Counted from the stretch's first letter, positions 28,521 to 64,000 are shown. The stretch: DNA of 64,000 nucleotides from Cyanophora paradoxa CCMP329 (GCA_004431415.1 QPMI01000395.1:496001-560000); one strand, 5' to 3'. The notes: generated by a model from the letters alone, not told the origin. Made by a program: numbers and translations.

Positions 28521-29171
28521 CGTACTAGGGTGACTGCCGAGGGCGCCGCGGCTGTAACGCCGAGTGCACCGGTCCTGCATCTGTACCCCCCTTCGGGTAA
28601 CTTCAACTTCACTAACTTGCAGCGAACCTGCAGCGCTAGCTGGGATCGGACGTCGACCCCCTGCGCATATGCGCATGCGGCCCTTACACTATCTGTATAG
28701 CTATAAAGATCTAGATGAGACTAGATCTGCAACTGCCGCGCGCCAGCTCTAGATCTGCGCATGCACTGCGGCAGGCTGCCCGGCCCGGCGGCCGCCGCAG
28801 CGCCTTCGAATTCCGTACCGTAGTACGTACCGTGCGCGTAGCGCGCGGCGCCTAGGTCCGACGGTCGGTCGACGTGATCGACGAGCTACTCCTCCGAGGC
28901 TCCGCGCCGAAGTCGACGCGGCCGGGCGCCGGCGCCGGCGCTGTCCGGTCGTCGACCCTTGCATGCCCACGTGCATGACTCAGTGGACCGGATCCCGGAT
29001 ATCGGCGATCGGCGATATCGATCCGGGAGTTCCTACAGCCTGAGCTAGGACTAATTATAATCGAGCAGTAGGCCTTAGTAGGTTTCAAGCTTAAGAGATT
29101 AATCTCGAGCCGGGAAAAACAGCCTGTGCAGGCCTAGGGCACGAGCGCGCACAACGTGCACGCGCAGCGGG

Positions 29172-32642: not shown

Positions 32643-32676
32643 TTCTGCGCTGTACCCCATCACAAAAAAAGGGGCG

Positions 32677-34601: not shown

Positions 34602-34614
34602 GAAGACGCGGCAG

Positions 34615-36274
34615 GGGGTACCAGCATGCGGCAGAAGACGTCGCGGGGGGACACCGACTCGAGGGCCGCGGGGGAGAGCGGGAAGCCGAACTAGAAAGGG
34701 GGAAAGGGGCGTCGGAAGGGGGGTACGGCCCCTCGGCGCGGGCGCGGCGGGCGCACGAATCCCTGCAGCTCCGCGAGGCGCATCGCGCGGCCCCTGCGAA
34801 CGAAGTCAGAGGGGTCAGCGAAGGGTCTCGAGGCGGCGGGCGGCTGGCGCGGTCCAAAGCGAGCTTGAAGCGAAATCGCCCCACAAACCCCCAGAGCCCT
34901 CTGGGCCGGTACCCCCCTCCCGTCCCTTCGTTCGCACCCGAAGCAGTCGACGTAGCGCCAGGCGTCGGGGCGCAGGTCCTCCCCTGGGGCCGCCGGCTCC
35001 CCCCGGGGCCCCTCCCGCGCCTTCACCAGAAAGTGCTGCGCGGGGGATTCGAACCCGTGAGCTCGAGACGGAACCCGAATTCGAACCCGGGTCGCTTACC
35101 TGGGGCGCCCCGACCATGCGGACGGGTAGGCCCGCGCGGCGCGCGACCGCCGCGAAGAGAACCTGGCGGTACCCCGCCGCAGCGTGAGGAGGGTGGGGGG
35201 AAGGGAAGGAGGGTACGCCGATCACCGAGAGGGAGATGGGGATGCCCTGCTTCGAATCCAGGAGGCGGTGAATCAGAGAGTTCTCCTCCCGATAGTAGTT
35301 CTGGGGGCGGGGGGGGGTACGCGTGAGGGGCGCAGGGGGCAGAGGGGGGGAAGGGCACGCCTCGCGGTTTCCCCCGTACCCGAGCTCAACAAAGAGGTAC
35401 CTGCGCGGAGTGCGCTGGTACCAGGGAGCGATTCGGGGGGTTGACGGGAGGGGTACGCGTACTTTGCGAGGCGCTCGCACCGCTCCGCGTCCGTCGCGGA
35501 CGGGTCGTCGACGCGGCAGAAGCCGTCCGCGAGCTGCGAACGAAGTCAGAGAGAACGAAGGGAGGGAGGGAGGAGGGTACGGGCGGCTCGCCTCGTCCAG
35601 CCTGCGGAGGACGGCCTCGCGGCTGGCGGAGGGGTCCGCCCAGCGGGCGATGAGGATAGCCCCGTCCTGTCCGGAATGAGAAGAGAACGGCGCCGGCCCG
35701 CCGCGGACGGGTACGCGCGCCTCGTACGGGAACTCGGTGCAGGGGACGCCGCGGGCCGCGTTCGCGGGGGCGCACAGCGCCGCCATCTCGCGCTCCGCGA
35801 GGCTCTGGCGGACCTCGGCGGCCGCCAGGCGCGCCTGGTACGCGCGGGCCAGGCGCTCGGGATCCCGGGCGAGCCGCTCCAGCGGCGCCAGGGCGTTCGC
35901 GCCGAGCTCGACGAGCTGCCGGACGGCGGCCCGCCGCGACGCCTTCCTCGACATCGCCTGCGCGGCGCCTCAGGGCGGCGGGGCATCGCGGATCGCCTTG
36001 CCGCGCACGTCGACCGCCTCGGGATGTTTCGGATCTTGCGCTGGAGCTCGATCGCTGCTGCCCGCACGCTCTGGTCGGGCATCTCGGCGAACGCTGCGAA
36101 CGCGCGCTTCGCCGCGGCGAGCCATATGTGCTCGCTCTGCTCTCCCCCGTCGACAATGATTCGCCGCAGGGCCCTCGAGACTGCAGAGAGCCGGGCCAGG
36201 TCCTCGAGAGCCAGGCCGCCGCAGACGAGCGCCCAGAGCTCGCAGGGAAGCTCCCGAACCTCGTGCTGCTCCAT
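34615..36274 (-). pseudogene. 3'-truncated copy of FBXO21-like gene (F-box + SirB1, no YccV)
   Basis: Same as 30976..32642; ends at duplication junction. Confidence 0.75.
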
Positions 36275-36308
36275 TTCTGCGCTGTACCCCATCACAAAAA
36301 AAGGGGCG

Positions 36309-43925: not shown

Positions 43926-46900
43926 CTTTCGCCCCAGCGGGGCGCTCTTAGGGGTTGGGATAGTAGACTCTATGCCCAGCCCTCTAGACCGGGTCCGCCC
44001 AGGGCTGCTCGGATGCGCAGAAGCTAAACTGAACTGAGCTCATGTGATCTTCGTTCTCGCTCAGGTGGACGTGGCGGCGTTCGTGCAGCGGATGGAGGGG
44101 GACGCCAAGGCGCGCGACGCGAAGCTGAAGCAGGTGCCCCGCCCCCGCCCCGCCTCGGCTCGGCTCCGCTCCGCTCTGCCGGGGTGCTCTTCTAGAACGG
44201 GAGCACGCCTAGCGCCTCGCCTCCGCCACACCCGCTCCTAGCTGGGGATCTCGGCCCCCCGACCCCGACCCCGTCTCGGCTATGCCGGGGTGCTCTGCTC
44301 TGCTCTGCTCTGCTCTCGCTGCTCTGCTGAGGCTCGGGGCCCCCGACCCCGACCCCGACCCGACCCCGCCCCCGACCCCGCCCCCGACCCCGACCCCGAC
44401 CCCCGACCCCGCTGCTCGGCTCGGTTCCGCTCGGCTCCGCGGACGCCGCCGCTCCTTGAACGGGAGCACGCCTAGCGCCTCGCCTCCGCCGCACCCGCTC
44501 CTAGCTGGGGATCTAATTCCCTCGCCTAAATCCTACCTTGGCTCTGCTTCGCTTCGCTTCGCCGGGGTGCTCTGCTCTGCTCTCGCTGCTCTGCTGAGGC
44601 TCGGGCAGCACGAGGACGCCGAGCAGAAGATCGGGGGCGCTCTTATTTAAGACGGGGGGCTCTTATTTAAGAGTTGGGATAGAAGATAGACTCGTGCTTT
44701 GCCTTGGCTCTGCTTCTGCTGAGGCTCGGGCAGCACGAGGCCGCCGAGCAGAAGAAGGCCCGCGAGATGGCCGCACGCAGTGCGCAGTACCCCGCCCCCC
44801 TGGCCCCTCCCCCCCCTTTCTTCCCCCCCCCCCCCCCCCCCCCCCCTCCCACCACCACCCCTTCTAGCTTCACTTCCTCCCCTTCCTCCCCTCCCCTTCC
44901 TCCCACCCACCTCCTTCCTCCCCCTTCTAGCTTCTAGCTTCTAGCTTTACGGTCGACAGCTGAGCGGGGGCGCCCTTGCCGGCGCGCGCTGCTTCCAGGC
45001 CCCCAGGAGCCCCCCTCCCCCCCCCCTCCCCCCCCTCCCCCCCCCCCCCCCCAGCCTCTCCCGGCTTCCCCGAGTTTCAGTCTCAAGCTCTCCTCCCCCT
45101 AGCTTTCCGGACCCCCATAGCCTGCCCTCTAGCTTTCAGCTAGCTCGCCCCGGCCGTGGCCGGCTCGGCTGAGGGGCTTGGGGGCCGGGCAGGCGCGGAC
45201 CCGGTGGACGTGGACGCGTTCGTCAAGCGCGTCGAGGCCGACCTTAAGGTCGCCCCATCCCTCCCCCGGTCCTTAGATGAGAGAGATTCCTTAGCTCTTC
45301 TTAGATTCCTTGGCTTAGCTCTTCCTTAGATTCCTTAGATTCCTTAGCTCTTCTTAGATTCCTTGGCTTATAATTAGCTCTTCCTTTAAATTCCTTGGCT
45401 TCGAATTCGCGCGTCGAGGTCCCCGCCCCCTCCCTCCCTCCGTTCCCGCGCCGGCTCCATCCCCGGCGGCTCGCAGTTGCTTGGGAGCTCTAGGCGGACC
45501 TTAGGGCGTCCCCAGCTCCTAGCCCGTGCTCGGCTTAATCTAGCTCTATCTCTTCCCTAAGGCTAGGTGGCTAGCTCCTCTCGCCCTGCCCTGCGCCTCG
45601 CCCTTTAGCTTCTTCTTCTTCCTTTCCTCGGGTCTGAGACTTGTGGTGCGCAGACGCGGACGGAGGGCCTGGCGAAGAGGCAGAGGGACCAGGAGAAGGT
45701 CCGCCCCGCCCCCCGCCCCCGCCCCCGCCGCCCCCGCTTCAGCTTCGCCCCGCTCGCCTTCTAGCTATAGCCCTAGAAGGCCCCGCCCCCGCCCCCGCTC
45801 TGTCGCTAGCTTTCTAGCTAGCCTCTAGCTAGCCCTAGAAAGCCCGCCCCCGCCCCGCCCCGATTTAGCTGGCTTTAGCTAGCCCTAGAAGCCCGCCCCG
45901 CCCCGACCGCCCCGCCCCGCCCCGCCCCCGCTTTGCCCAGCTCTCTGTTTAGCTAGCCCTAGAAGGCCCGCCCCGCCCCGCCCCGCCGCGCTCTAGCCGG
46001 CTTTTCCCTATCCGCACCTATCTCCACCGCGCCGCCCAGCGCCCTCCTCGGCCTTGCTCACGGGGCGGGAAGGGGGCCGGCTTTTCCTATCCTCTCGCCG
46101 GCTTTTCCCATCCGCACCTAGCTCCACCGCGCCGCCCAGCGCCCTCCTCGGCCTTGCTCACGGGGCGGGCGGGGACCGGCTTTTCCTATCCTCTCGCCGG
46201 CTTTTCCCATCCGCACCTAGCTCCACCGCGCCGCCCAGCGCCCTCCTCGGCCTTGCTCACGGGGCGGGCGGGGACCGGCTTTTCCTATCCTCTCGCTGGC
46301 TGCACCCATCCGCACCTAGCTCCACCGCGCCGCCCAGCGCCCTCCTCGGCCTTGCTCACGGGGCGGGCGGGGACCGGCTTTTCCTATCCTCTCGCCGGCT
46401 TTTCCCATCCGCACCTAGCTCCACCGCGCCGCCCAGCGCCCTCCTCGGCCTTGCTCACGGGGCGGGCGGGGACCGGCTTTTCCTATCCTCTAGCCGGCGT
46501 TTCCCATCCGCACCTAGCTCCACCGCGCCGCCCAGCGCCTCCTCGGCCTTGCTCACGGGGCGGGAAGGGGGCCGGCTTTTCCTATCCTCTAGCCGGCGTT
46601 TCCCATCCGCACCTAGCTCCACCGCGCCGCCCAGCGCCCCGCGCCGCCCCGACGGGGCGGGGGCTGACGGGGCGGGCGGGGGCAGGCGCTGGTGGCGGGG
46701 GCGGTGGGGGCCGGCAAGAGGGTCGACGAGCAGACCTTCGTCCAGCGCATGGTCTCCGACGCAAAGGCGCGAGAGAGCCCTACCCCCCATTTCCCCCCCC
46801 CCCCACCGTCCCGCATAGAGAGGGAGGGTAGGGCCGGAAGGAGAGGGCCGAGAGGGCGCTCAGAGAGAGGGCGAGGGCGAGGCGGGGCGGGCCTCATACT

Positions 46901-48082: not shown

Positions 48083-50771
48083 TCAGAAGCCGGTTCCGGG
48101 CCCGCGGCCGGGGTACGGGATCGAAGCGACGGCGTCCCACGGCTTGAGGCCCCCCGAGGACTCGTCCCAGAACTCGGCCCCCTGCGCCCCGCATCGGATC
48201 GGAGGTCGAGGAGCTAGCCCCGCATCAAGATATCAAATTAAAAGCTCGGCTCACGTAGGTGGTGAGGACGAATTCGCGGATCAGGTGCTTGACCAAGCCC
48301 AGGTCGACCTTGCCCGCCTGGATCCTGCGCGATTCGAATTCGAGCTCAGCGGGCGCGTTACTTTAACGGCGCGTGAGGAAAGGAGGCGCTGACATTGCGG
48401 TGGTGAGGGCGAGGCGCTGCTCGGCGACCTTGCCCGTCACCTCCTGGTACCGCTCCCACACCGACGGCCCGTTCACGATCACCACAGGCGGCGTCGGGGG
48501 CGGCAGGGCCCGCCCGGCCGCGGCCCCCGGCCCCGCAGCGGCCGTGCCCGCGCGATTCGAGCTGCGCTTCACTGTGAGGCGGGGAAGCCTCGAGCTCGAG
48601 GCGGGCGGGCGCGGGGAGGGAGGGGCGGGCGCACTGCTGCTGCTGCCTGTGGCCGGGGCCGGTTGCGGCGTTGACCAAAGGGACCGCTCCAGGAATCGCT
48701 CCGGGCATGGCGCTCGAACTCGCGACTGCAGCTAGCGCGCGCCTGACCGCGGAGGCTGTTCCAGGTGTAGCGCTCGGGCTCACGACTGCAGCTGGCTCGC
48801 TCCCGGCCGCGGGGGCTGCTCCGGCCACAGCGACAGCTCCAGACATGACGCTCGAGCTTGCAACTGCAGCTGGCGCGCGCCCGGCCGCGGCCGCGGGGGC
48901 TGCTCCGGCCACGGGGAACGCTCCAGACATGACGCTCGAGCTTGCAACTGCAGCTGGCGCGCGCCCCGCCGCGGCAGCGGGGGCTGCTCCGGCCACGGGG
49001 AACGCTCCAGACATGACGCTCGAGCTTGCGACTGCAGCTGGCGCGCGCCCCGCCGCGGCCGTGGGGGCTGCTCCGGCCGCAGGGACCGCTCCAGGCATTG
49101 CGCTCGAGCTCGCGACTGCAGCTGGCGCGCGCCCCGCCGCGGCCGTGGGGGCTGCTCCGGCCACGGGGACCGCTCCAGGCATTGCGCTCGAGCTCGCGAC
49201 TGCAGCTGGCTCGCGCCCGGGCGCGGCCGCGGGGGCTGCTCCGGCCACGGGGAACGCTCCAGACATGACGCTCGAGCTTGCAACTGCAGCTGGCTCGCGC
49301 CCGGGCGCGGCCGCGGGGGCTGCTCCGGCCACGGGGACCGCTCCAGACATGACGGTCGAGCTCGCGACTGCAGCTGGCGCGCGCCCCGCCGCGGCCGCGG
49401 GGGCTGCTCCGGCCACGGGGACCGCTCCAGGCATTGCGCTCGAGTTCGCGACTGCAGCTGGCTCGCGCCCGGGCGCGGAGACTGCTCCGGCCACGGGGAA
49501 CGCTCCAGACATGACGCTCGAGCTTGCAACTGCAGCTGGCGCGCGTCCGGCCGCGGCCGCGGGGGCTGCTCCGGCCACGGGGACCGCTCCAGGCATTGCG
49601 CTCGAGTTCGCGACTGCAGCTGGCTCGCGCCCGGGCGCGGAGACTGCTCCGGCCACGGGGAACGCTCCAGACATGACGCTCGAGCTTGCAACTGCAGCTG
49701 GCGCGCGTCCGGCCGCGGCCGCGGGGGCTGCTCCGGCCACGGGGACCGCTCCAGGTATTGCGCTCGAGCTCGCGACTGCAGCTGCCGCGCGCCCGGCCGC
49801 GGGGGCTGCTCCGGGGGCCGCTCCAGGCATGGAGCTCAAGCTCGCGATCGGCGCGCGGCCGACCGCGGGGGCTGCTCCGGGGACCGCTCCGGGGATTGCG
49901 CTCGAGCTCGCGATCGGTGCCCGCCCAAATGGTTCTGGGGCCCTGGGGGCGCCCGGGGGAGACGGCCAGGGCGGGGCGGAGCTCCGGGGGGCGAGCCCCG
50001 CGCCGCGGCCCGCGCCGCCCTCGTCGCTCGAGCTCGACGACGAGCTCGAGATCCACGAGTGCATTTCCCTGCGAATAATCATGACATCAATAAATAAGAA
50101 AGAGATCTAGCTAGAGGAAAGAACTGCAGGCAGGCTCGGAGAGGGGGAACGTCGGCGGGCGGGCGCGGCGCACTCGTTGGGCCACGGCAGGAGGTCCGGC
50201 CCCGGGGCCCCCGGCTCCGGCTCCGGCTCCGGTTCCGGCTCCGGCCCGCGCTGCAGGTGCGGTGGCCCGCCCCTCGCGATGCACCTCTGGCGCGCTCGCT
50301 CGGCCAAGAAGACCTGCCGAGATATAGCTTATAATAAGCTTATAATAATAACTAGGCTCAAGCTTCTGCCAAGAAGACCTGCGTGCGCCTCGTGTTCTTT
50401 GCCACCGCCCTGCGCGCGCACACGAAAAGCTTGAGAGTGAGATCTAGAGGCCGCGGCCGTCGGTCCGGATCCGACGCTTCGGAGCCTCGGCGTCCCCGAT
50501 GAGGCAAGGGCGACGCGTGCACGCACGCTGCGACCTTCTCGCGGTTCCTCTCGTACACGGCCTTGAGCTCGGCCAGGCCGCCGGTGTACCGGGTCTGGAG
50601 GCGCGGCACGATGTGCTTCTCTGCGTACTGGATGTACTTGGGGTCCAGCATCTGCTCCAAGCGCATCGCGGTCACCCTGTCGAACACGCAGAGCGCCGGC
50701 TCGCGCCTAACCGCCAGGTGGTACCTGCAGTGACCGAGTAAGGCACGGCGCGGGCGCGGGAGACTGGCCAT
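48083..50771 (-). CDS. Hypothetical protein with central Ala/Pro/Ser tandem-repeat region
   Basis: Exons MASLPRPRR...ERNREKVAA, VFLAERAR...(PE)n, REMHSWISS..repeats.., IQAGKVDLGLVKHLIREFVLTTY, AEFWDESS..GTGF*. Confidence 0.55.
48690..49920. repeat. Coding minisatellite, 84-bp unit with 78-bp variants, about 14 copies
   Basis: Unit encodes PGAVPVAGAAPAAAAGRAPAAVASSSAM; unit lengths are multiples of 3. Confidence 0.9.
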
Positions 50772-51012
50772 GGCGCTGACGACTCGACGCGCCGCGGTCA
50801 CTACATACATTGCAAGCTGGAGGGGGTGAGCACAAGGCCCCGGGGGGTGTAAATATAATCGCTATAATGACTATCATCGACGTGGTCACTAGAGTCGCTT
50901 AATGTAAATACGACGCGAAAGCTAAAGACGAAACTGGAGCTGGAGCTAATTAACTCGCTTAAGCTTCGAAGCTATATTATATCACTTCAAATAGGCTTAG
51001 TTAGTGTCCCAA

Positions 51013-51287
51013 TGTGATCCCAGCCCCATGCCTAGGCAGCAGGCGCGCAGGCGTAGCACGAACGGGTCGCAGCTGGGCTTCTTACAGGACTGAGGGGGTA
51101 TCGAACAACGTAGGGGGGGGTACAGAATCTGTCTACGAACCGGCAACGCCGGAGGAGTCCTAGGTACTGCGGAGGTACCGGCAAGTCTATGAGCTATTGA
51201 GAAGTGCTACAGCCTCAGCCCGCGCACTAGCACTATACTACAGAGTGGCTCGAAGGCCTGAATGCAAGCTAAACTACAGTGGCAACA
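51013..51287 (-). repeat. Candidate 3' LTR (TGTTG...TCACA on minus strand) preceded by PPT-like GGGACAAGAGGGC
   Basis: Purine tract at 51288-51300; TG/CA ends; host-like sequence to the left. Alternative start at 51742 (TGTGAT..ATCACA). Second LTR not in window. Confidence 0.4.
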
Positions 51288-51694
51288 GCCCTCTTGTCCC
51301 TAGGTCGCGTCCTCGCGGCCACACCAGGCGGCCGTCCCGACAGACTTACGGGCCCCGAGGCCCCGCTGCAGCCTTGACAGAGCAAAACCAAGCAGCGGTG
51401 TACAGCCGCTACCCAGCCGCTCGCTGCGCAAAGGAAAAGTTTTAGTTTAGCGCGAGCAATGGCCCTCGGCCCGCGACATCGGTCCGGCATGATCCGGTAC
51501 TCGCCTCGTCTCAGAATGGTAGCAGGGAAACCCAGGGGCCACACATTCCAGGGGAGCGCGCGTGCAGGGTGCACCGCCTCAGAGACGGGGAGCAAATCAC
51601 CATCCAATTTGTCATCGCTCAGAAAGGATCCCAACCGTTAACGTCGACTGATCAGCGTGAGGCAGCCGTGGCCGCGTCACGTGTGGCAATCGAC

Positions 51695-54600
51695 TCACGC
51701 CGAGGTGGCGTCAGCATCTCCATCCTCAGAGTCAACATCACAGTCATCTACAACGACGGCCTCGCCGACAGGTTCCGGGGGTACCACGACCTCGTCCTCT
51801 TCGACCTCGTCGTCAAGGGGTACAGCTCCATCAATGGCGTCGGGATCGCTCGCGGCCGGAGGGGGAGCGGCTCGAGGCGGTCGGCCCTGACGTCGAGGCT
51901 CTGCCACGTCGGCCGGCCGATCGTAAAAGGGGATCATGAGGTCAACGTGAACAAGGATCGACTGGGATCGATGCATGTTCGACGATGGCTCCCCGCGTAC
52001 AGTGTACAGAAGGCCTCGGGAATGGATCTCCTGCACCACGTAGGGACCCGTCCAGCCATTCCTCGGCCCCTTGATTCGCGCGCTAGTCTTGGCAGTGATA
52101 ATCCACACCAACACCTTGTCGCCAGGCTGGAAGACATAGGTAGGCTCGCGGCCAGTCCCGTAACGGAGCAACTTCTCGTTGTAAAGACGCCGGTGCTCGG
52201 CCACCGCAGTGATCCGATCCTTAGCGGCCCTCGCCGCCGACAGCGCGTACTCGTACAGAGAGATCGACTCTTCGTTTGGTTCCCGCAGTACCAGATCGAG
52301 TCGAAGCTCATCGGGTAGGAGCAGTTCGCGCCCGTAGTGTAAGACTGCCGGCGAGAACCCAGTCGCCGCATGGATTGTTGTCCTCAAGGCAAAGAGAACT
52401 TTGTAATGATGGAAGGGCCAGTGAGCGCGAGGCTCGTGGTTCTCGTCGCACATCGCGTACACCAATCGCTTGTAGATGCCGCCCAGACGCTCAGCGCCAC
52501 CGTTGGTAGATTGGTGGTTGATCCCAGTGTAGATCATGCGCGTACCCTTGGCTCGCCAGAAGGTTCCCCAAAGAGACTTCGGTCCGAGGACCGTCCCGTT
52601 GTCAGAGAGGTAACGCTTGGGAGCACCGTTAGCCGCGAAGATGATCTGTGCCGCCATCTCCAGGGCCTGGCCGTCAGCCGCGGTGTACATGATAATCTCC
52701 GGGAACTTGGTGAAGGCGTCGACGTCGACTATCACGCCGGTGAAGAGGTGGACCCCGCGCCTGTGAGGTTCCATGGGGAACAGGTCGACCTGCCTCAAGT
52801 CCCCAGGATGCGCGGATTCCAGCACCATGTGTTGGACTCTCGGGCGGCGTTGCGCCTTCGCGAACTGGCAGTGTCGGCACGTTTTCACGAAGCGGTGAAC
52901 AGCGTTCGTCATCCCCGGCCACCAGAAACGAGACGCGATACGCCGCGCCACAATGGGAGCGCCGCGGTGTGCCCACCCGTCGTGATACACCTCGAGGAAG
53001 GTGCGTCGCCACGACGGGGGAACGAGGATTTGAGCTCGCATGGTAGGCAGGAATGGTAGCCGAAGGACAGTGCCCTCCTCATCGATCGTGTAGCCCTCGG
53101 TTTCACGAGCGAACCGTCGTCTCGCAGACTCGCAGTGAATGCATTGCTGCACAATCTCTGTTTCTACCGTCGCCGCTCGCCGGTGCCGAAGGCACATGGC
53201 GTTGTTCTCGCCCTTGCAGATGAAGGCTCGCAGCAGTTGACAGAGCGGGTCCTCCGCCTGTGCTGCAACGACGGCGGCGCCGTCGACAGCGAGTTTGGCA
53301 ACAGACGGTGGTACGGGGACGTCGACCAGTGGTCGGGGTCCCTGCAGCCACGTATCTTCCACCACCACGTCGTCAGGTAGATGGATGACTGCGGGCTTGT
53401 TGCGGTCTCCTCCGGCAGGGCCAATAGGAGACTTGTCCAGCGGCGCGACAGCGTCGGTGCTCATCGGAGTAGGCTGAGGAATTCCAGAGTCGCGTTGCTG
53501 CTGTAAGTACGCCTCGTACTCAGCTTCGTCGGCGACGTCGAGAACGGCGGGGGGCGCAATGGAGTGGCGAGAGGATCGAGATCTCCTCCCTGGGAGGCGA
53601 GGGGGCAGGTCTGCGGCCCGCTGAGGGGTGTCTGCTGACTGCTTCCACGCTTCCCAGTCGGCGTTCCTCGCTTCGCGTCGCGTCGACTTGGTCGGCGGTT
53701 CCGGTCGGTTGCACGAGCGGCGGTTGGCATCGTGACGACTCTTGGCCTGGTCTGACAGCTGCTCGCGGCGGTTATCGAGGGCCTGCTTGTACTGCTCCTC
53801 TGACTCGCGGCGTTGCTGCTTGGTTGTCGTCTTCGCCTTGTCTCGCTCACCACGTGCAAGCCGCTCGGTGAGCGGGTCGCGCGGAGGTGGAGCGGGGATT
53901 CCGTTGCCGACGGACGAGGTAGAAGGGCCAGCTTGCGCCTGGAGGCGTTTCCGATCTCGTTCGGATTCCAAAGCTCGCAAGTACGAGTCGTTTAGAGGGG
54001 GAGGAGGGGGGAGTTTCCGCGGGCGTCCACGTGGTCGCTTCGGGAAAGGGGGCACGGGGGCTGGGCAGCCCTCTTGTCCCTGAGACTGAGCTCCGTCCGC
54101 GTGGGGTGGTAGCGAAGGCTCAGTGCGAGTGCGTCGGGGCGGAGGGGGCTGTGCACTCTCGTCCTCGTCACCGGTGTCACTGTCGCCGTCGGGCCGAATT
54201 CGCCGTCGCGAACTGGGGGGTGACGTCGGCGGCTGGGGTGCTGTAGAGGAGGGACCGAGCCGTTGGCCAACGGGTCGATGCTCGTCTACAGGGGGCGCTT
54301 GGCGACGCCGCTTCGCTCCCGGCGCCAACGCCCATGCTGGCCCGTCGAGCGTGTCCGTGGGGGCTACCGCGAAGAGCTGGGTTGGGTCGTCGAGATCGCC
54401 TCGGCGGGGTACACCGAATCCTCGAGCTCCGTCGGGGATGTCAGTCGTGAGGTCTGAGCCGTCACCCGCTCCTGGGAGGAAGAGGTCGTGTGACGGTTCC
54501 AGACGCGACTCGAAGTCTGCAACAACGTTGGTGCGCCCCGCGCGGTACTCGATGGTGTAGTTGTAGCCCTGAAGTCCCAGCGCCGCTCGACAGAGCGCCT

Positions 54601-55995
54601 TGTTGTTCGTCACGTCCTGTGACTTCAACCATTGGAGTGCCGAGTGATCGGTCCGGACTGTAAATGGGTGCCCGCACTCGAAGTAATGGCTCCACACTTT
54701 CACCGCCCAGAGTACCGCGATGCATTCCCCTTCCGTCGGACTTTGAAACTTGCGCTCCGTCGCAGTCAGGGTCCTGCTGATGAAAGCGATGGGACGCTCT
54801 CGTCCGCAGTCGTCAGCCTGCATGAGGACCGCCCCCATGGCGCGCTTGCTCCAGTCCGTGTGGATGACGAATGGTTTGGCAAAGTCGGGTAAGAGTAGTG
54901 CGACATCCTCCATGATGGCGGCCTTGAGGTCGTCCAGCGCCCGTCGAGCGTCATCGTCCCAGGTGACCGTCAGCGAGTCAGCTCGTGTTGCTCGCGTGAC
55001 TAGGTCGCGTAGGGGCAGTTCCCGCTTCGCGTAGTTGCGAATGAACCGTCTGTAGAATCCAGTCATGCCGATGAAGCTGCGAATGGACTCGACAGTTCCG
55101 AGATCTTTTTCCTGGGTCTTCTCGATGAGGGCCATCTTGGTCTTGTCCATCTTCACGCCGTTGCGGCTGACACGGTGTCCGAGTAGGTCGATCTCTTTCA
55201 CCATGAAACGGCATTTGGACGGTTTGAGCTTGAGGTTTCCTCGCTCGATCGCGGCGAAGAAAGCCTCAAGGTCGACAAGGTGTTGTGAGGCCGTCGGGGA
55301 GTGGACCGTGAGGTCATCAACGTAAGCGACAACGCTTGTCGACAGCAGATTGCCCAAGATCGATGTCACTGCTCGACAGAACGCCGCTGGTCCGTTCGTA
55401 ATACCAAACGGGGTAACTCGCCATTGGTACATGCCCCAGGGCACGATAAACGTCGTCAGAGGCCTGGATTCTTCGTCGAGTTCAAGCTGCCAGAACCCGG
55501 AGGTGGCGTCACACGTCGAGAAGTACGTCGCGCCTTGCAGGCGTTCGAGTTGATCGTCTATTCTCGGGAGAGGAAAGACGTCGCGCTCCGTGAGCGAATT
55601 CAGCTTGCGGTAATCGACGCAAAATCTCATTGTCCCGTCCTTCTTGGGCGCCAGTACCACTGGGGAACCGTATCCAGCTTGGGAGGGTTCGATCAGACCA
55701 TCTTGCAGCAGTCGTTCGATTTCGGCTTTGGCCGCCTTCTCAGCAGGGGGAGAGAGGCGCCGGGGCACGCTGTACAAAGGCAGATGCTTCGTAGGTACGC
55801 CGGGGAGGAGTCGGATGCTGTGACGGTACTTCAGTAGCTCTTTGGGGTTGATGCGCTGCGCGAAGCAGTGCGCCATCCGTGTGAAGAGGCTACGTAGTTG
55901 GTCACGCTCCTCCTCCGTCACATCGTTGTCGTCTTTCGACGGCTGCATGAGATCGTCGACGAGTTGTCGGACCTCCTCCTCCGTCTGTGGTGGGG
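51695..55995 (-). CDS. pol: Pol: reverse transcriptase, RNase H, long linker with AT-hook, integrase
   Basis: ORF 51695..56176 with intact YVDD, RNase H acidic residues, integrase HHCC, DDE and GPY motifs; no chromodomain seen. Confidence 0.95.
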
Positions 55996-58750
55996 GGTGG
56001 CGTTGGCGCTCGAAGGAGGTTCCATTGCGTGGGGTTCGGCGGGTGAAGCGGAGGAGATGGTGATGCAACGCGGTTGCGCCGACGGCGTGGTCGGGGCAAA
56101 CGTGATGCATACAGGGCTGAGGAGGGGCCTGCCTTGCCGATAGGTATCGGCAAAGTGGGGTTCGAAGATCTTGCACAACTCGTTGATCTCCGATGGCATC
56201 AGAATCGCGCGTGATTCTCGGGTGTATCGCGTGACGAACGCAGTCACGAAGCGTGAGAGTTGGGTTTGAGCTTCGGAAGTGAGGACTGGGGGCGTCGGCG
56301 CCGCTCTGTGAGCGGGGTCTAGGCCTTGGTCCTCGGTCTGGGGTTGTGGTGGCCGTGCAAAAACAGAGGGGTACTGTTCGTGCACTCGGGATACGTAACG
56401 TCGAGGCTGTGATCGCCCAGGTACAATCACGGGTTGCACATTGGAGAGGATTTGGACGGCAATGGAAGAGATGGGGAACTTGCGCTTCTCGTCACTCGAC
56501 CAGGTCTTGTAAGTACCCGTCGGGTATCGATGGACGTCGTCGTGGGGTCGGAACTCGCTCTCGGGCCACTTGCCGAATTCCGCCTCCGCGATGACGGTCC
56601 CCGCTTTCAAGCGGACGGGTCGGCGTTGTGGATTGCAGACCTGAGCGAGGAAAGCTCCTCCTCGAGGACGTCGATGTATTTGGTGAGGGACAAGATGACG
56701 CGGTTCATCTCCTTCACCGGGGTCGTCGGCTCCGTCGTCGTCTCCAACAATGTGCGGCGGCGGCGTGAGGAGCATCTCCGGCGCATCGTCAGTCGCGTCT
56801 TGAGGGCCCGTCGAGACGTAACAGCGAACGAGAGCTTCGCCTGGCCCGACGGTGACATCTTGGGCGAGGCGGACCAGAACGCCCCCGTCGGTCTGGTCCG
56901 CAAGCAAAAAGGGACATGGTATCGTTCGCCATTGTCGGCGTCAGGTGCCGTGATCGTCATTCCCAGTTAGTCGGGTCGAGCGAGATGTGAGCGTTCATGG
57001 CAATGAGCGTCGCCAATCCAAGGAGCATTTGAGTAGACCCCATGAGGCCCTTGTCCACCACTAGGACCTCTCTCACCGACCGTACGGGACCAATCATGAC
57101 CGCCATGTAGGCGATGCGAGCGTAAGCCGTCATGTCGTCGCCAAATCCGGTCAGTTGTACTGGCGGCGCGCGGCTGTAACGGAGGCCCTCGATGCGCGCA
57201 GCGAGGTCTCCGTCAATCACGTCAGCTGCGGCGCCCGTATCCACCAACGCCAGAGTTTTGACGGACGGTCCGACTTTCCGTCCTGGTGCATAGGACCCGA
57301 GTCGCACCGACACGCAGATGCGACCATCTGCAATCCGTTGCTTCATTGTCCGGTCGGGTTTTGTCAGCTGAGCGATTCGACGTCCAATTGCCGTATCCTC
57401 GGCTGTAGGTATGTCGTTAGGAGACACGATGTCACCCAGCCAACCGAGCATTCTTGCCGTGCGGACACGAAGTGCTGTCTGGTAGCTCCGTTCCACTGGC
57501 GTCGTCAAAGGTCGTGACGATGAGATGGCGTCAGGTGGGAGGCGGGCAACCCGGATGCGGGCAGTCTTCTCCACCTTGGAGACCGATTCATGTGCTCTGT
57601 TGAAAACATGTACCGCCGCGAAGGTTCGAGGTCGGTTTGGAATCAGGCGGGTGCTGTTGGACGGCACCGGGCCGCTGCTAGGACGAGTGCTGTGGTCCTG
57701 CCGGCTGAATCCGAGTCCTCGTCTCGGGGATGTTGTGAGGTATTGGGCGTGTACGCTGGTCTTCCGGCCAAACCAGATGTAAGCGATGCTCTCATCCGAG
57801 TCAGGGTTGGGATCGAAGTCGACGAGCGTGTCGTATTCCGCGTAATGATGGCCGTGGCGACTGAGGCCCTCGCGCAAGTAGCTGACCAGCGTCTTCCACT
57901 GGTGAGGTAGGCGGGTGTCGCCCTGCAGGATCGAGTTGAAGTAAAATCGAGCGCGGTCCCGATGGATGGAGACGAGCGAGGCGTGTTTGACCGCGTCCCA
58001 CGCGGTGAACCCCAAAGTGTTCATGATGAACGCCATGCGAGTGAACAGGGCGCGTGTGCGCACGACGTCCAAGGAGGCTCCCGCCGAGTTGGAGAGGTCA
58101 GGCGGCCGTGCTCGCAGATCCTCAGCCAATGACACGAGGGCGTCAGCATTGAGCTGATGCGGTGTTCGGAATGCGCTCCAGTCATACAAATCGTATTCAG
58201 TCCTGAAGTTCGTTCCGTCTTCGTCCCAGAGGTCTGGCCAGAGTACGGGGATGGACTCGTGAGACTGACCGTGTGCCGCGAAGCGTTCCCAGCTGTACTC
58301 CGTGTACGAGGTGTCCACAGGCGTTTGGGAGAGGTCACGGTAGTGTGCACGGAAGTAGAAGGTAGGCGGGAGGGCTCCTTTACTTCCGCGTGGAGCTAGT
58401 GCCGAAGTTCGAGAAGTCGTGCTTGTGGTGTCGCTGTCGCTGCCCGCTACCGGTGGTGTTCGGGCGACGCGCCGGAAGCGAACGCGGTGAACTCCTGTTT
58501 GGGGCAGACGGGGCTTGAACTCGGGTGCGACGTCGAAGCGACAAAGGCGAAGTGCCCGAGCCGTGTCACCCCTGTCAATCACGACGGGCGTCTTGCCGCC
58601 GACCCGAGCACCGTCAATTGTTCGCGGTGTGATCCACAGGGCCCATTTGTGCTCCTTCTCGCCGTCGTTCGGGAGGTCTGTCTCCTTCATGCGCTTCGGC
58701 CTCGGCTTCGTACCGGCTAGACTTGGATTCGCGGCGGCCGCGTTCTGCCG
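55996..58750 (-). CDS. Gag-capsid-like segment, aspartic protease and beta-rich PR-RT linker (frameshifted pieces)
   Basis: RARFYFNSILQGDTRLPHQWKTLVSYLREGL..DESIAY resembles the retrotransposon Gag pattern (weak); ALVDTGAAADVI..MLLGLATL is a retropepsin; DVTVGPGE..VCNPQRRPVRLKAGTVIAEA resembles the linker of many gypsy elements. Confidence 0.7.
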
Positions 58751-61195
58751 TCGTACCAGTCGGGCTGCTCCATCGTCCCCGTCGCCTGGTCGTACAGGTA
58801 CGTCCGCGGGTATCGGGGGTCGACTTGTAGAGCGCCGCGCAGCGGGTTGATGGACAACCCGACGCCCTCAAATGGTCCGGGAGGAGCTCCGTCCTCGTCG
58901 TCACCGATGTAGAGGTGGGGCCCGAAACGGCTAGGATTTGCTCCGTCGGCTTCTGTGAGACCTCCGCTGTACCGCAAGGGGGGTGCCAGTTCAGCTGTCA
59001 TGGTGATGCGGTCGTCCCGTGACGTGCCGGAAGCGTTGTAAGCCAGCGTTATCCAGCGCGTACGATGCTCCACGAGGTCGTCGGAGAACAGTATTGCGCC
59101 GTAGTCAAGGAGAAACAATTCGGGAATCGAATCTTCCTCGGACGCGTGGATCTCATTGTACTGTAGGAGTACCTCCGGACCCACGTGCTGTTCGTAATGA
59201 CGCCAGGACCGTTCGAACTCGTTCCTGTTGAACGTGTATTGGCTCACGCCCATGCCGAGGTTGTCCATGCCCCTGTTGCCGACCATGGTTCCGTCGTGTC
59301 CAAACATCTCGATGACGTTGACAGGGAGGTCGAAGGCAGCGGGAAAGTGTGCATGCTGCGACTGGCGATCTTCGTAGCGTTGCCATGTCTCCTTGGCTGT
59401 TGTGGAGGCGCGCCCGGCATTGCCGAGGGCCCCGTGGCGGACAACTGCCGCGAGTTGCGTTGTAATCGCCGTGACTAGTAGTGCCATGAAGGCCGTTGCA
59501 AACATGGCGCCGGGTGGTGGTGTTGCCGTGCCAAAATCCCGGGCGTACCAGTCTTGCAGTTCCTGAGACACGGTCATGTTGCCGTCGTCGTCGACACGGA
59601 AGTGTAGTAGGCTCGCATTCGAAGTCACGTATTCGTCGAGAATCTCCAGCAGGCCGTCGTGGATTGGCATCTGTTTCGACGGGAACGCCGTGTACAAACG
59701 GATTGAAGCTGCTACGTGATGTGCGAAGTGGTGGACCCAGTGATGTACTTCCGGCTTGAAGGGGATAACGTGGATGAATGCGCCCTCCGTCGGCCTAGTA
59801 GGCCTCTCGATGGTCTTCCAGACGCCGCCGGGTAGGATCGTCTCCTCAAGCAGAATTGGTATGCGATTGTAGTCGAAGTATGCAGGCTGGTCCGCGGGCC
59901 GTTGTGGCCTGTTCGAACGGGCGATTTGGAGCCAAGTGTCACGGTTGTTGGCATCGAACACGTGAACGACAGCCTGGGTGTCCCTGGTCCGCGTCTTTGT
60001 GTAAATTCGCGGGCCGCCGTTGGCGAAGACTTCCAGGGTGTCGCTCAGTATCGTCGGGGAGTTGAACTCGTGGAACGTGCCAGCATGGGGTCCGCCGTTG
60101 CCAAGCGGGGGAGCCATTTCATGTCCCTGAGGCCGCTCGAGTGGGCTTCGGAACGCTGTGAGGTAGTTACCGAGCTCATTCAACGGGTTGTGCTCATTGG
60201 TGGGAGCGATTGTCAAGGTGGTAAACTTGATCTCGCAACGGTTCTTGCGGGTATTGCCGTCATCTGTCACGGTCTGCACCCCGTGCAGGTACGGGTTGGA
60301 ACGATTGCGTGCCCGATGGCGTACCACGCCGTCGAGCGCCTGTAGTGCTCCGCGCCAACGAAGCTGGTTAAGCGCGTGGATCGGTCTGAACTCTGGAAGC
60401 TTCCGCATGAACTTGTCCATGTTCGTGTCGCCGTGCATGAAGTACTGAATTTGGCTCTCTGCCAGTGGGTGTTCCCATTCAGGCTTCGTATTCACGTACT
60501 CCTCCAATGCCGTCAAGTCACGCGTGAACGAGGACCGAGGTTGCGAGGCACTGCACATTTCTGCCACGAGGACGGCAGACCACGGAGTGTATCTCATGTT
60601 CTCGGCCATCGCGGAGCTGAGAGTACTGAGAAAGAATTCGACGCCTCGGAATGCGAGCGGCTGTTTGTTGATCGTGTATACTTCGTTGCGCGTGTCTGAG
60701 CGTGTCACGTCGTAGAGTTGCACCGTACTATCCTCGGGGATAGTGGGGTCCTCCAGACGTTCGAGTGCCGGCAGATCCTTGTGGTAAGACAGCGTGAACA
60801 AGCGGAAGTCGTTGTGTTGTCCCCTCCCGTGCTGGAGGCCCGAGTGCCCCGCCTCAAATGCCCACTGAGTATCGACGCTGTCGTCGAGTCCCCGCACTTG
60901 AGTATGATTGCTTGCGGTGGATGCGTTCCTGGGGTCGCCCCACCATCCGACGCGTTCGAACTTGTCGGTAACGTAGCCGTTCTCGATGATGTCGGCACCG
61001 AAGAACTTGTAGTAATATCGGGTACCGAATATGGCCCGGGCGTTCCGGCTGAGGTCGACAGTTTCGTAAAACCAATCGTCACCAGCCTCGTCTTCCGATA
61101 TTACTGTCTTGCGGCCCTTTTTCAGGCCCACGCGTTTAGCAGTTGAGCCTGAAGTTGTGCTACGTGGTTGCTGCACCGGTGCCGGGGCGGTCGTT
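58717..61195 (-). CDS. Unrecognised ~820-aa segment of retroelement polyprotein
   Basis: Long stop-free, intronless ORF with globular-protein composition; no motif recognised. Confidence 0.75.
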
Positions 61196-64000
61196 TCCGT
61201 CCTGAGAACATGAGGGGTGACTCCGCAGTGTGGTCTCGTCGTCGGCCGTAAAGAACATGGAATCGTGGATTCGGAGCGTGGTCAGTTCTGCCCAACGCAG
61301 GAGGAAGCGGGTGTCCCAATTGAGGCCGTACTCCGTGATCCTCTGACGTATCGGGGGAAATGGGACGTTGTACGCCTGCATAATGTCGATGGTTGCCGTG
61401 CTTGGATTCACGTAATCGTTCGGTACGCAGGGTGTAAGATCCGCAAGTAGGTTCTCCTTCGACTTGTTCCAGTACTGGAAAATTCCGAGAATCTTGTCGG
61501 CCCCGAACATGATCGCCCGGACGAGGGAGAGCCGGACTAGGGTGTTCGGCTGGGAGTCGATCAGTCGAAGGCGGTTTGTCATTCCGTATGCCAGGCACTG
61601 AGCCTGCCAATCCTCCGCATCCGTCCATTTGTCCCCGTTGTATTTACGCTTCAACGCCCAATACAATGCGTCGAGAACAGTGGCGTGCCACAACGTGGGG
61701 TTGGAGAGGAGTACCGCCTCCTGATGTTGAATACGGATGGTGTACGGGCCCTCAGGGTAGCCTTCAACCAGTGACAGTTGCAGGTCAGGTCCCGGTTCCA
61801 CGCGGCTGAGCTCGAAGCTGCTCGGGTAGCTACGAGCACCGACGCGCTCATGTACTCTCTCCGGGTAACGGTCCAGATGGAGCCGCAGGGCCTGTCGGAA
61901 TGCTGCTACGTCGCCGAGCTCGCGGGCACGCCCTAAGGCTGTCCTCGCGGAGAGATGGGTCACGAACACGTTGCCGGAGTTTTCGGCACCGGTCCGGAAC
62001 GCCTGAAGACCTCTCCAGAGTGGAGAAAGCGGGTCTTCGGAGTAGTCGAGGCGTCGCTCGTTACATTCAATCACCGCTAGTTTGTACTCGTCGAGTAATA
62101 CACCGTGGAGCTCGAAGGGCTTCCGGGGAACGTCCAAGGTCCCCTGTTCCGGGGGCGTCTGTGTCCGGTCAAGGTACCGGTCGACGGTAGCCAGCCAGCT
62201 GTTGGGGCTATTCGCGAAGTGGCCTCCGAAGGGCAGGTTGAGCACGCGCGTGATGTACTCCACCATTTCGACTCCCATTGTGAAGTAGAAGTCTGGGCTT
62301 GTCGGCCACAGCAGCCTATTTGGCTTTGCCGAGAACGGATCCGAACAGCGAAGCCAAGGGCTGCGCCATGAGTGATGCCGTTCCAACTCCCGAGGCTTCG
62401 AGTGGAAGTAGATGCGTGCTCCAGCCGCTGCAATGTGAATTGCGTTGGCCAGGGCTGTCACCCGCATCTCGAGGGCGATGTCTCGATCGAGCGCTGGAGG
62501 TGTCGCCGTGGGGTAAGGCGCGAATTCGTCGTCGAAGGGCGGCGGCAGGTGCGACTCGAGGGTTAAGCGTTCCAGTGCCGTCATGCGGACCGTCAGCGCG
62601 TCGGCGAGAGTGGGGAAAGGCGCATAGTAGTCCCCGTGCGGTTCGAAGTAAGTAGGGAATTGTGCCCGCATGCTTCGGCCGTACGAGATCATGACGTCGA
62701 AGAGCCAAGGCAATATTCCTTGCCGTGAAGTCGTCAGGGTTATTGCTTGTTGTGCATCAAGGCCCAGCAGCTCGAGGACAGATGCGTGACGCAGCGTCTC
62801 TTCCAAGCTATCCGTAGTGTCGGCTGTGCCCGCAATTCTCATGATCGCATAAGCGACAGCGCGGAGATGGGCGGTATGTTTGAGCAAAATCGCTGATTGC
62901 TCCTCGACATCGACGTACGTGACGAGTCTGTCGAGGACGTGCCGGTTAGCCGGGTTCAGCTCCGTGAGTCCGTCAGGCAGCGTGGAAATGTTTGTGAGGT
63001 AGAGGCCGGTCTTGGACGGGTCCGTACTTGCATTCCATGGCGTGTACTTGCGATAGGTTGCAAACAGGTTGGGATTGTCGACCGCAGCCGCTGCCTCTGC
63101 GTAGCCGGGCATTGTGCTTGGTATGACCCCACAGTCTCCGAGGCGCTGTGAAACTGCAGCAGTGACCTCGCCCAAGTGTGTGGTTCTCACGATTGCGCCG
63201 GTCTCCGGCGGGACTGGAAGTGGCGGTTCAGGTTCCGGAATCGGGACGGGAATGGCGCCGACTTGGATGTAACGCTGGGGATCCTCAGTGACAGTAGGGT
63301 AAGTCCGGGAAATGTGAATTGGTCCCGAGCCATCTTCCTCTGCCGTTGGCTCCTCCTCGTTCCAGGATCGCCAGTATTCACGTGCATATATCCACGCGCG
63401 CGAGTGTGGGCGAGCCCACAGTCGGGGACGGCAATCCCCTGGGCATTCAATCCAGTCGGGTCCTGGAGGGCTTTCGGACTCAACGATGAAGTCATCCGGC
63501 CTTGCCGTAGGGCTGTGATCGGCGGGGTTTGTCATGCTGGGCGTGTCCGTGGGCTCAACGTTCGACCTGTCTACCTCGCCGGCCGTGGCCGGGGCGGTAG
63601 TTGCGGGGTCGTGGTCGATTCGTTGTCAGTTGGCAGTGTCAAAGTCTGCTCCCTGACAGTTATGGTCATGTCCGGAGTCGCTTGCTCTGAAGCTATAACG
63701 CCGGGTTGAGCCACGCCAGCCGTGGCCGGGGCGGCTTCCAGGGGCGTCGTAAGGGTCGGAGATGCAGGGCTCGGGTTGATTGTTACGTTGGTAGCATTCG
63801 TCTCAGTTTGCGGCGCGCCGGCCGTGGCCGGGGCGACGGTAATGAGACTGGAGGGATTCGTAGTGCCATAACCAAGGGCCACGCTGTCGCTGGGGCTGAG
63901 GACACCACTCCCGGGATCGTCCAGGCTTGGGGGTCGGCCGAGGTCGCCCTGAACGGGGGTGAAGGTGTCCGTTCCGGGGTCTCAGATGACGACGTCGGTG
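61160..64000 (-). CDS. Unrecognised ~790-aa segment plus Thr/Pro-rich N-terminal region of retroelement polyprotein; continues off window
   Basis: ORFs 61160..63535 and 63571..63882 join on restoring one C at 63605-08; three APATAG repeats span the join. Confidence 0.7.

What the first reader, a model, noticed from the sequence alone, without database searches (positions are those of the whole stretch)
51695..64000. Giant Ty3/gypsy element that appears to encode one >4,100-aa polyprotein
Seen: the minus-strand ORFs abut or overlap, and each break is repaired by adding one base to a short homopolymer (63976-79, 63605-08, 61214-17 plus 61194-96, 58748-49, 56960-61, 56906-10, 55992-97). This gives sensible joins such as TPATTAPATAG, WYDGQNAAAANP, NWEMTIT, HVPFLLADQ and NATPPPQTEEE, with no stop codon left in 12.3 kb. 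The same 1-bp indel type distinguishes the two copies of the nearby duplication, pointing to long-read error. Established: typical gypsy Gag-Pol is about 1,300-2,000 aa; oversized lineages exist (plant Ogre, planarian Burro). Inference: a young, possibly intact giant lineage.
Basis: partly seen in the sequence, partly recalled or inferred. Interest (0 to 1): 0.85.

Follow-up and report, generated by a model that had tools for sequence, protein, structure and literature searches.

The report
Giant frameshifting algal gypsy retrotransposon
This is a recently copied jumping gene, inferred to be about 18 kb long and to come from the alga Cyanophora paradoxa, whose two very long reading frames are likely joined by a programmed ribosome slip placed, unusually, after the protease, so that it would make a protein of over 4,100 amino acids, about half of it with no detected relative outside this alga.

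Summary
A real giant Ty3/gypsy element, but not one ORF. The eighth (56906-13) is unchanged in 8 of 8 runs. It leaves ORF1 (at least 2,467 codons, ending after the protease) overlapping ORF2 (1,748 codons, RT-RNase H-integrase) in the -1 frame. A slippery heptamer lies there, 5 nt before the only perfect 10-bp stem in 12.7 kb (0 of 2,000 shuffles). Two sister families keep the same offset. A programmed -1 frameshift is likely, giving a fusion of at least 4,100 aa. A 3'-UTR intron is spliced in 3 of 3 RNA-type runs, and four DNA runs lack this insertion. Proteins 98-100% identical point to Cyanophora paradoxa, whose RT sequences form their own clade. About 2,200 aa of ORF1 have no assigned function. 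Frameshifting, priming and Gag are untested.

The parts
56607..64000 (-). ORF1, at least 2,467 codons, open at the window end: Thr/Pro-rich repeats, about 2,100 aa of unassigned sequence, protease, then a 100-aa basic tail ending in an amphipathic helix-like stretch
   Evidence: stop-free with N at the short-read indel sites; codon score; same stop peptide in another copy, P0136
63570..64000 (-). Thr/Pro/Ala-rich repeat region of ORF1 (four [TA]PAT[AT] motifs)
   Evidence: the same contig holds a further copy of the motif outside the aligned part (table 5c)
58720..63570 (-). Two unassigned ORF1 segments of about 800 aa each; relatives found only in Cyanophora sister families (25-32% identity)
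   Evidence: model of the 854-aa segment uninformative (pLDDT 27.5)
57500..58402 (-). Best-conserved unassigned ORF1 segment (35-41% identity to sister families together with the protease); holds a predicted ~110-aa helical bundle with no clear structural match
57005..57259 (-). Retropepsin-type aspartic protease (DTG), at the end of ORF1
   Evidence: Pfam E 1e-4, under the curated cut-off; model matches retroviral proteases, Z 12.1, rmsd 3.5, 100 aligned
56907..56913 (-). Slippery heptamer C CCU UUU in register with ORF1 codons
   Evidence: no indel in 8 of 8 runs
56869..56901 (-). 10-bp perfect stem (56901-56892 with 56878-56869) 5 nt after the heptamer; its loop can pair 7 bp with 56852-56846 (candidate pseudoknot)
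51695..56940 (-). ORF2 (pol), 1,748 codons, in the -1 frame relative to ORF1; first ATG at 56775
55900..56906 (-). Protease-RT linker in the pol frame, conserved across Cyanophora families from 56886 on; dUTPase-like by recalled resemblance only
   Evidence: no Pfam hit
55169..55648 (-). Reverse transcriptase core (YVDD)
   Evidence: PF00078 E 9e-34; best PDB sequence match Ty3 Gag-Pol E 1e-77
54563..54961 (-). RNase H
   Evidence: PF17917 and PF17919, E 7e-30 and 1e-27
53500..54300 (-). Long low-complexity tether between RNase H and integrase
   Evidence: composition; gap in the alignments to relatives
51950..53023 (-). Integrase: HHCC finger, D..D-36-E core, GPY motif; no chromodomain hit
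51424..51504 (-). 81-nt GC-AG spliceosomal-type intron in the 3' UTR (branch-like CTAAAC, pyrimidine tract, CAG)
   Evidence: skipped in 3 of 3 RNA-type runs and 0 of 5 other runs; sequence
51289..51301 (-). Polypurine tract
   Evidence: sequence, 1 nt before the LTR start
50987..51287 (-). 3' LTR, 301 nt in the window (302 in the contigs), TG..GA ends; its first 16 nt are complementary to the sequence 1 nt after the other LTR
   Evidence: own contig at 1.5-1.9 times the internal depth, branching at both ends
50981..50986 (.). Host flank at the junction; holds the expected target duplication; site empty in four DNA runs
   Evidence: a 513-nt contig runs through 50986 into other sequence in X1, X5, X9, X13

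Best explanation
This is a transcribed, recently copied Ty3/gypsy LTR retrotransposon, inferred to be about 18.3 kb long and from Cyanophora paradoxa, with two overlapping reading frames that are likely joined by a programmed -1 ribosomal frameshift just after the protease. Most ribosomes would make a giant ORF1 protein (presumed Gag at the unseen N-terminus, about 2,200 aa of unassigned sequence, protease, a 100-aa tail). A minority would slip at C CCU UUU, paused by the 10-bp stem or pseudoknot, and make a fusion of at least 4,100 aa carrying RT, RNase H and integrase. The protease would cut these up inside a particle. Reverse transcription is probably primed by the element's own RNA, because the priming site pairs with the LTR's first 16 nt and not with a tRNA end. 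Shown: frames, domain order, frameshift motif, LTR ends, splicing, near-identical copies. Inferred: frameshifting, Gag, priming, present-day mobility.
For: Seven indels in short-read contigs restore two long frames; leaving out any one breaks them. No indel at the eighth break in 8 of 8 runs (6 coded studies plus one unnamed). The heptamer is the only in-register one in the overlap. The stem is the only perfect stem of 10 bp or more with a loop up to 30 nt in 12.7 kb; heptamer plus such a stem occurs in 0 of 2,000 shuffles of the overlap (heptamer alone 120). In two sister families (66-73% identity over RT-RNase H), 7 of 9 gene models that contain the protease read on after the same V-P-F into the same off-frame tail, and the other 2 skip the region. 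Pol-frame similarity to a distant family begins at 56886, upstream of the first ATG. RNA-type contigs run unspliced across the overlap while splicing the 3'-UTR intron. Four other gene models are 98-100% identical, three of them reading through the 61.2-kb breaks. Only 8 substitutions separate the window from a 12.7-kb contig. Site empty in four runs.
Against: No direct test of frameshifting. The hairpin's folding energy alone is unremarkable (z -1.0 to -1.7), and the shuffle test was designed after the motif had been seen. No capsid or CCHC motif lies in the window, and the nearest family's 2,943-aa model has none either, so Gag is unproven. Contigs drop rare variants, so a minor spliced pol RNA is not excluded. 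Sister-family evidence is from predicted proteins, not DNA. A Met at the position of ORF2's first ATG is shared by one sister family. The window's junction is crossed by one contig only (X2), with 29 letters on the LTR side, under the tool's 31-letter bar. The RNA label of X17-X19 is a guess, though the splice supports it. Leader-bearing RNA contigs begin at LTR nt 211 and 216 in two studies, a weak hint that the 5' end lacks the 16-nt primer.
Confidence: 0.8

Rival explanations
1. One continuous >4,100-aa ORF, as in Burro; the break at 56906-10 is a sequencing error like the others.
For: The site is a homopolymer run, and seven other breaks are errors.
Against: No indel there in 8 of 8 short-read runs, four of them screened at a 1% threshold. 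Same offset in two sister families. Heptamer plus stem geometry. Another copy ends at the same ORF1 stop peptide.
Confidence: 0.03
2. The two ORFs are real, but pol is made separately, from the ATG at 56775 or from a minor spliced RNA (Ogre-like or foamy-like), not by frameshifting.
For: ORF2 has an ATG before RT, and one sister family has a Met at the same position. In Ogre an intron between GAG-PROT and RT is spliced from a subset of transcripts (PMC6317226). Contigs drop rare forms.
Against: No splice joint in the overlap in 3 of 3 RNA-type runs. The Met is not shared by the more distant families, while the pol-frame sequence upstream of it is. The ORFs overlap rather than being separated by a stop-rich spacer. 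The frameshift motif would be unexplained.
Confidence: 0.12
3. The upstream 58-64 kb is a captured or nested coding element, or an accessory gene fused to the protease, and Gag is a separate ORF or absent (non-autonomous for particle formation).
For: No capsid or zinc-knuckle signal in 2,250 aa before the protease; segments only 25-32% conserved even in sister families.
Against: It is in frame with the protease, on one 17,773-nt contig, and collinear in sister families. Two other families of the clade carry a CCHC knuckle about 800 and 2,450 aa before the protease in their gene models, so a Gag beyond the window fits. Nesting is disfavoured; a separate Gag ORF is not excluded.
Confidence: 0.15

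Closest known systems
Ty3/gypsy LTR retrotransposons (Metaviridae), e.g. yeast Ty3
   Same: PR-RT-RH-IN order, HHCC and GPY/F integrase motifs, PPT, LTRs; Ty3 Gag-Pol is the best PDB sequence match.
   Different: About 18 kb with short LTRs; protease at the end of ORF1; frameshift after the protease, not before it; TG..GA ends; no tRNA-type priming site; RT 33-44% identical to non-Cyanophora hits.
Burro / GYPSM1 of planarians (PMC6431247, passages)
   Same: Gigantism through coding sequence placed before the protease; polyprotein of similar size (4,873 and 5,140 aa); a linker between PR and RT.
   Different: Burro has one ORF with recognisable BIR, ankyrin, BCL2, MATH and Env-like domains; none was detected here, and a frame change separates PR from RT. 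No Burro sequence was in the tree, so kinship is untested.
Ogre elements of plants (PMC6317226, PMC6431247, passages)
   Same: Gag-protease and RT-RH-IN in separate ORFs; large size.
   Different: Ogre joins the ORFs by splicing a ~274-bp spacer and owes its size to 1.9-6.5 kb LTRs and an 11-13 kb interior; here the ORFs overlap by 334 nt, the LTR is ~302 nt and the interior ~17.7 kb.
pro-pol frameshift of beta- and deltaretroviruses (MMTV, HTLV; PMC5009743, passages)
   Same: [quoted passage not shown]
   Different: There it is the second of two shifts; no shift is seen in the 2,250 codons before the protease here, and this is a retrotransposon.
Self-priming Tf1/sushi, Tcn1 and Tj1 elements (PMC4600332, PMC6317226, passages)
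   Same: Priming site complementary to the element's own LTR instead of a tRNA.
   Different: Their primer is the transcript's 5' end; here the complement is LTR nt 1-16, while RNA contigs hint at a start near nt 211-216. No chromodomain hit.
Tos17 and other TG..GA LTR elements (bioRxiv 10.1101/137141, PMC9804982, passages)
   Same: Non-palindromic TG..GA ends and a short LTR.
   Different: Those are mostly small Copia elements (about 4.3 kb); non-canonical ends are rare in gypsy (11% of classified cases).

Membership tests
Ty3/gypsy (Metaviridae) | Domain order PR-RT-RH-IN | tested here: met
Ty3/gypsy (Metaviridae) | RT closest to Ty3/gypsy RTs | tested here: met
Ty3/gypsy (Metaviridae) | Direct LTRs at both ends, PPT before the 3' LTR | tested here: met
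   3' LTR and PPT in the window; second LTR shown indirectly by 1.5-1.9x depth, separate flanks at both LTR ends and a shared continuation into a leader
Ty3/gypsy (Metaviridae) | Gag (capsid, usually a CCHC nucleocapsid) | tested here: inconclusive
   none in the window; ~5 kb unseen; CCHC present in two other families of the clade
Ty3/gypsy (Metaviridae) | 4-6 bp target site duplication | not testable with these tools
   far end lies outside the window; no genome held
Programmed -1 frameshift cassette | X XXY YYZ heptamer in register, downstream ORF in the -1 frame | tested here: met
Programmed -1 frameshift cassette | Stimulatory structure 5-9 nt downstream | tested here: met
   10-bp stem at 5 nt; the pseudoknot is only a pairing possibility; no Rfam match
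Programmed -1 frameshift cassette | Measured frameshifting | not testable with these tools
   needs a reporter or ribosome profiling
Burro | Single ORF from Gag to integrase | tested here: not met
Burro | BIR, ankyrin, BCL2, MATH, Env-like domains before PR | tested here: inconclusive
   no Pfam hit at E<=1 in the window; no clear transmembrane segment (best hydropathy 1.89); folds not resolved; 5 kb unseen
Ogre/Tat | Spliced spacer between GAG-PROT and RT ORFs | tested here: not met
   ORFs overlap; no joint there in 3 of 3 RNA-type runs; rare forms not excluded
Ogre/Tat | Kilobase LTRs, tRNA priming site | tested here: not met
Tf1/sushi-type self-priming chromoviruses | Priming site complementary to own LTR | tested here: met
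   16 of 16 nt to LTR nt 1-16; no other match of 9 nt or more in the LTR
Tf1/sushi-type self-priming chromoviruses | Complement lies at the transcript's 5' end | tested here: inconclusive
   contigs cannot show starts; two stop at LTR nt 211 and 216, one runs through
Tf1/sushi-type self-priming chromoviruses | Chromodomain after integrase; RT within the chromovirus clade | tested here: inconclusive
   no chromodomain hit at E<=1; the tree held no named reference lineages

The most novel reading that the evidence does not exclude
A glaucophyte-specific giant gypsy clade that primes reverse transcription in an undescribed way: the transcript starts deep inside the LTR, so the 16-nt complement of the priming site exists only near the RNA's 3' end, beside the polypurine tract, closing an 18-kb RNA into a panhandle from which the primer is cut. 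It makes a multi-thousand-residue structural protein of new folds, with protease at Gag stoichiometry, to package that RNA, and uses retention of a 3'-UTR intron to tell genomic RNA from mRNA.
Probability: 0.2. Interest if true: 0.9.

Novelty: new variant of a known kind. Interest (0 to 1): 0.72.

Why it matters
Giant LTR retrotransposons that owe their size to coding sequence are described from planarians; this would be a second, probably independent case, in a deep-branching algal lineage for which my searches found no described LTR element. It combines features that are each rare: a single -1 shift after the protease, TG..GA ends, a priming site matching the LTR's very first bases, and a spliced 3'-UTR intron that the DNA copies keep. 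The element looks intact, transcribed and polymorphic in a cultured model alga, so limits on RT processivity and particle capacity, and the priming route, become testable. It also shows that such elements hide as fragmented host gene models (44 Cyanophora models match its pol region or ORF1) and would be missed by finders set to require TG..CA ends.

Tried and rejected
No whole genome is held, so the 5' end, far flank and TSD were not read. The N-terminal 136-aa piece found no longer protein (weak evidence). The 821-aa segment found only a near-identical copy among 1.84 billion representatives; the 854-aa segment only that copy (lengths 469-1,495 only). PHROGs and NCBIfam gave nothing beyond a weak protease hit. 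The ESM Atlas gave no answer. The AlphaFold model of the 854-aa segment was uninformative and was not searched. The helical bundle before the protease has no match above the level common for helical bundles (best Z 8.0); it was not folded alone, so no claim of a new fold is made. No related locus in metagenome contigs, no exact match in viral contigs, no Rfam family above threshold, no earlier findings. No run was on record as RNA. The IQ-TREE run did not finish; FastTree was used, with 34 of 166 sequences left out for covering under 330 aa of the core. A dUTPase-like identity of the linker was not shown: its profile hit non-Cyanophora proteins only at E 0.03 or worse, and not the dUTPase-bearing P0100. 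Substitutions between copies (7 silent, 9 missense, no stop, 16 of the 17 in coding sequence classified) are too few to show selection. Contig depth ratios of 5.6-6.1 are a hint, not a copy number. A possible 3-4 nt duplication read from one 5' flank and one mixed-consensus 3' flank could not be assigned to one insertion and was dropped. A recalled paper on Dictyostelium skipper was not held; the passages read instead put its protease in ORF2.
Full report
Observation. The minus strand of 51695-64000 holds six large stop-free pieces that abut or overlap. A codon score trained on the pol core picks one best frame in nearly every 300-nt window and changes frame at the breaks. Pfam finds protease (E 1e-4, under the curated cut-off), RT, RNase H and the integrase zinc finger in gypsy order, and nothing above cut-off in the upstream pieces. 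No whole genome is held, so I tested the breaks against short-read contigs of public runs. Twenty listed runs hold at least half of the sampled words; eight were laid.

Seven breaks are errors, one is not. All four runs have extra bases at 55991, 56961, 58761, 61183, 61213, 63604 (one each) and 63923 (seven). The four runs covered only 50860-57300 and repeat 55991 and 56961. None of the eight shows an indel at 56906-13, though each has a contig spanning it. With N at the seven sites there are two long frames: ORF1 63998->56607 (2,467 codons, open at the window end) and ORF2 56940->51695 (1,748 codons), overlapping by 334 nt; dropping any one indel breaks this. Three near-identical copies annotated elsewhere (P0135, P0136, P0138) read through the 61.2-kb breaks, and P0136 ends at the same ORF1 stop peptide. 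Caveats: contigs drop rare variants, the 2024 runs may be one campaign, and the best holder may be the window's own sample.

The frameshift signal. At 56913-56907 stands C CCU UUU, the only X XXY YYZ heptamer in register with ORF1 in the overlap. Five bases later begins a perfect 10-bp stem, the only one of that length with a loop up to 30 nt in the 12.7-kb interior. Its loop can pair 7 bp with 56852-56846 or 5 bp with 56866-56862. In 2,000 dinucleotide shuffles of the overlap an in-register heptamer arose 120 times, with a 6-bp stem 3 times, with a 10-bp stem never; this test was designed after the motif was seen. Folding energy alone is modest (z -1.0 to -1.7), and Rfam has no match. In two sister families, 7 of 9 protease-containing gene models run on after the same V-P-F into a tail like ORF1's, and the other two skip the region. 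A more distant family matches the pol frame from 56886, upstream of ORF2's first ATG at 56775. I infer a conserved programmed -1 shift. The fusion would have about 2,368 + 1,737 = 4,105 aa inside the window, and up to about 5,750 aa if ORF1 fills the unseen 5 kb.

Ends, size, priming. In DNA runs 50987-51287/8 forms its own contig at 1.5-1.9 times the internal depth, and other flanks leave it at both ends. This is the LTR: TG..GA, 301 nt in the window and 302 in the contigs, preceded by a polypurine tract. The interior is one 17,773-nt contig in X9 and X2, reaching 5,018 nt beyond the window, which gives about 18.3 kb in all. In all three RNA-type runs the LTR end continues into one and the same sequence, and the mixed loose-end line of the other runs is consistent with it. 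After one base, its next 16 nt are the exact complement of LTR nt 1-16; there is no TGG and no other match of 9 nt or more in the LTR. That is the geometry of self-priming. In Tf1 and Tj1 the primer is the transcript's 5' end (PMC4600332, passages). Here leader-bearing RNA contigs begin at LTR nt 211 and 216 in two studies, while a third runs through; contigs cannot show starts, so this is only a hint that the primer may come from elsewhere. The other reading, a 319-nt LTR with 16-bp inverted ends, would need every 3' copy seen to have lost the same 17 nt.

Activity. An 81-nt GC-AG intron (51504-51424) is skipped in 3 of 3 RNA-type runs (two studies) and in 0 of 5 other runs. So the element is transcribed and spliced, while the DNA copies keep the intron, which suggests that unspliced RNA is the one copied. 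The window differs from the 12.7-kb X9 contig by 8 substitutions. In X1, X5, X9 and X13 a 513-nt contig runs through 50986 into other sequence (an empty site). One X2 contig crosses the window's junction, with only 29 letters on the LTR side. The insertion is probably polymorphic between cultures; a local misassembly is not fully excluded. Depth ratios near 6 and four other gene models at 98-100% identity on differently named contigs suggest a handful of copies.

Host and kin. The best 24 pol hits are EukProt models, and every cluster looked up among them belongs to Cyanophora paradoxa; other organisms reach 33-44% identity. The 98-100% matches make C. paradoxa the inferred host. In a FastTree of 132 RT-RNase H cores (34 of 166 left out as too short), the 42 Cyanophora rows, window included, form one side of a long branch with SH-like support 100 and fall into about eight families. 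The rows were chosen by similarity to the window, the root is a midpoint, and no named reference lineage was included, so placement within Ty3/gypsy is open. Two other families have gene models of 4,924 and 3,310 aa with a CCHC knuckle about 2,450 and 800 aa before the protease, so a large, variable stretch between Gag and protease may be a trait of the clade.

ORF1 content. The visible 2,250 aa before the protease have no CCHC and no family hit. They match only Cyanophora sister families, at 25-41%; the 821-aa segment found one near-identical protein among 1.84 billion. Folding confirmed the retropepsin domain (Z 12.1, rmsd 3.5, 100 aligned) and gave a ~110-aa helical bundle with no clear match; the 854-aa segment did not fold. 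My working guess, not shown, is structural or host-interaction modules released by the protease at Gag stoichiometry.

Comparison with print. Burro has a single ORF of 4,873-5,140 aa with recognisable domains, and Ogre's size is mostly LTR (PMC6431247, passages). Ogre joins GAG-PROT to RT by splicing; plant elements reach 24 kb; self-priming is predicted for Tcn1 and TAR; that survey required TG..CA ends (PMC6317226, passages). A -1 shift after the protease is described for beta- and deltaretroviruses (PMC5009743, passages of the first 300,000 characters). TG..GA ends are known from Tos17 and are mostly Copia (10.1101/137141 and PMC9804982, passages). A C. paradoxa genome paper gives LTRs as 1.77% of the genome and has no occurrence of 'gypsy' in its main text (PMC6704402, passages); a methylome paper reports methylated retrotransposons and has no occurrence of 'gypsy' or 'Ty3' (PMC12344493, passages). 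Searches for this element, for glaucophyte LTR lineages, for a gypsy shift between protease and RT, and for this priming geometry (listings only, apart from the papers named) found no description. Repbase, subscription journals and all supplements were not seen; repeat libraries there may already hold the sequence.

Verdict. A new variant of a known kind: a giant, coding-dense, probably active gypsy element whose >4,100-aa protein is likely a frameshift product. Interest 0.72.

Noticed in passing
window 30971-34602 and 34610-38238: Tandem duplication, 99.56% identical, differing by 13 gap bases and 3 mismatches; may be real or a long-read artefact. It holds F-box-like and PPR-like coding pieces by eye only.
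   Followed up: partly
window 48692-49913 and 45964-46661: Tandem arrays of 84-nt and 99-nt units with long stop-free frames on both strands.
   Followed up: no
window 12149-13123, 18107-19573, 29149-30124: Dispersed repeat family, 77-94% identical between copies.
   Followed up: no
window 50508-50728: The flank next to the LTR is itself repetitive: several contigs with loose ends and two variants.
   Followed up: no
window 51140-51232: One LTR-like copy lacking 91 nt, at about single-copy depth, in X1, X5, X9, X2 and X13; a deleted LTR or a relative.
   Followed up: no
window 63691-63999 (+ strand) versus P0137: The end of gene model P0137 resembles the plus-strand frame of this stretch, suggesting a rearranged or inverted copy elsewhere.
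   Followed up: no
P0154, P0155, P0162, P0131: Other Cyanophora gypsy families with gene models of 2,943-4,924 aa; P0154/P0155 have I-P-F at the position of V-P-F, so the frameshift may be clade-wide.
   Followed up: partly
window 56607-56720 (- strand): The ORF1 tail ends in an amphipathic, coiled-coil-like stretch also seen in sister model P0013, although it overlaps the pol frame; it may mark the non-shifted product.
   Followed up: no
window 870-2087 and 22000-26200: Intron-rich gene pieces that look like NACHT-type ATPase, WD40 and pentapeptide repeats, by eye; not searched.
   Followed up: no
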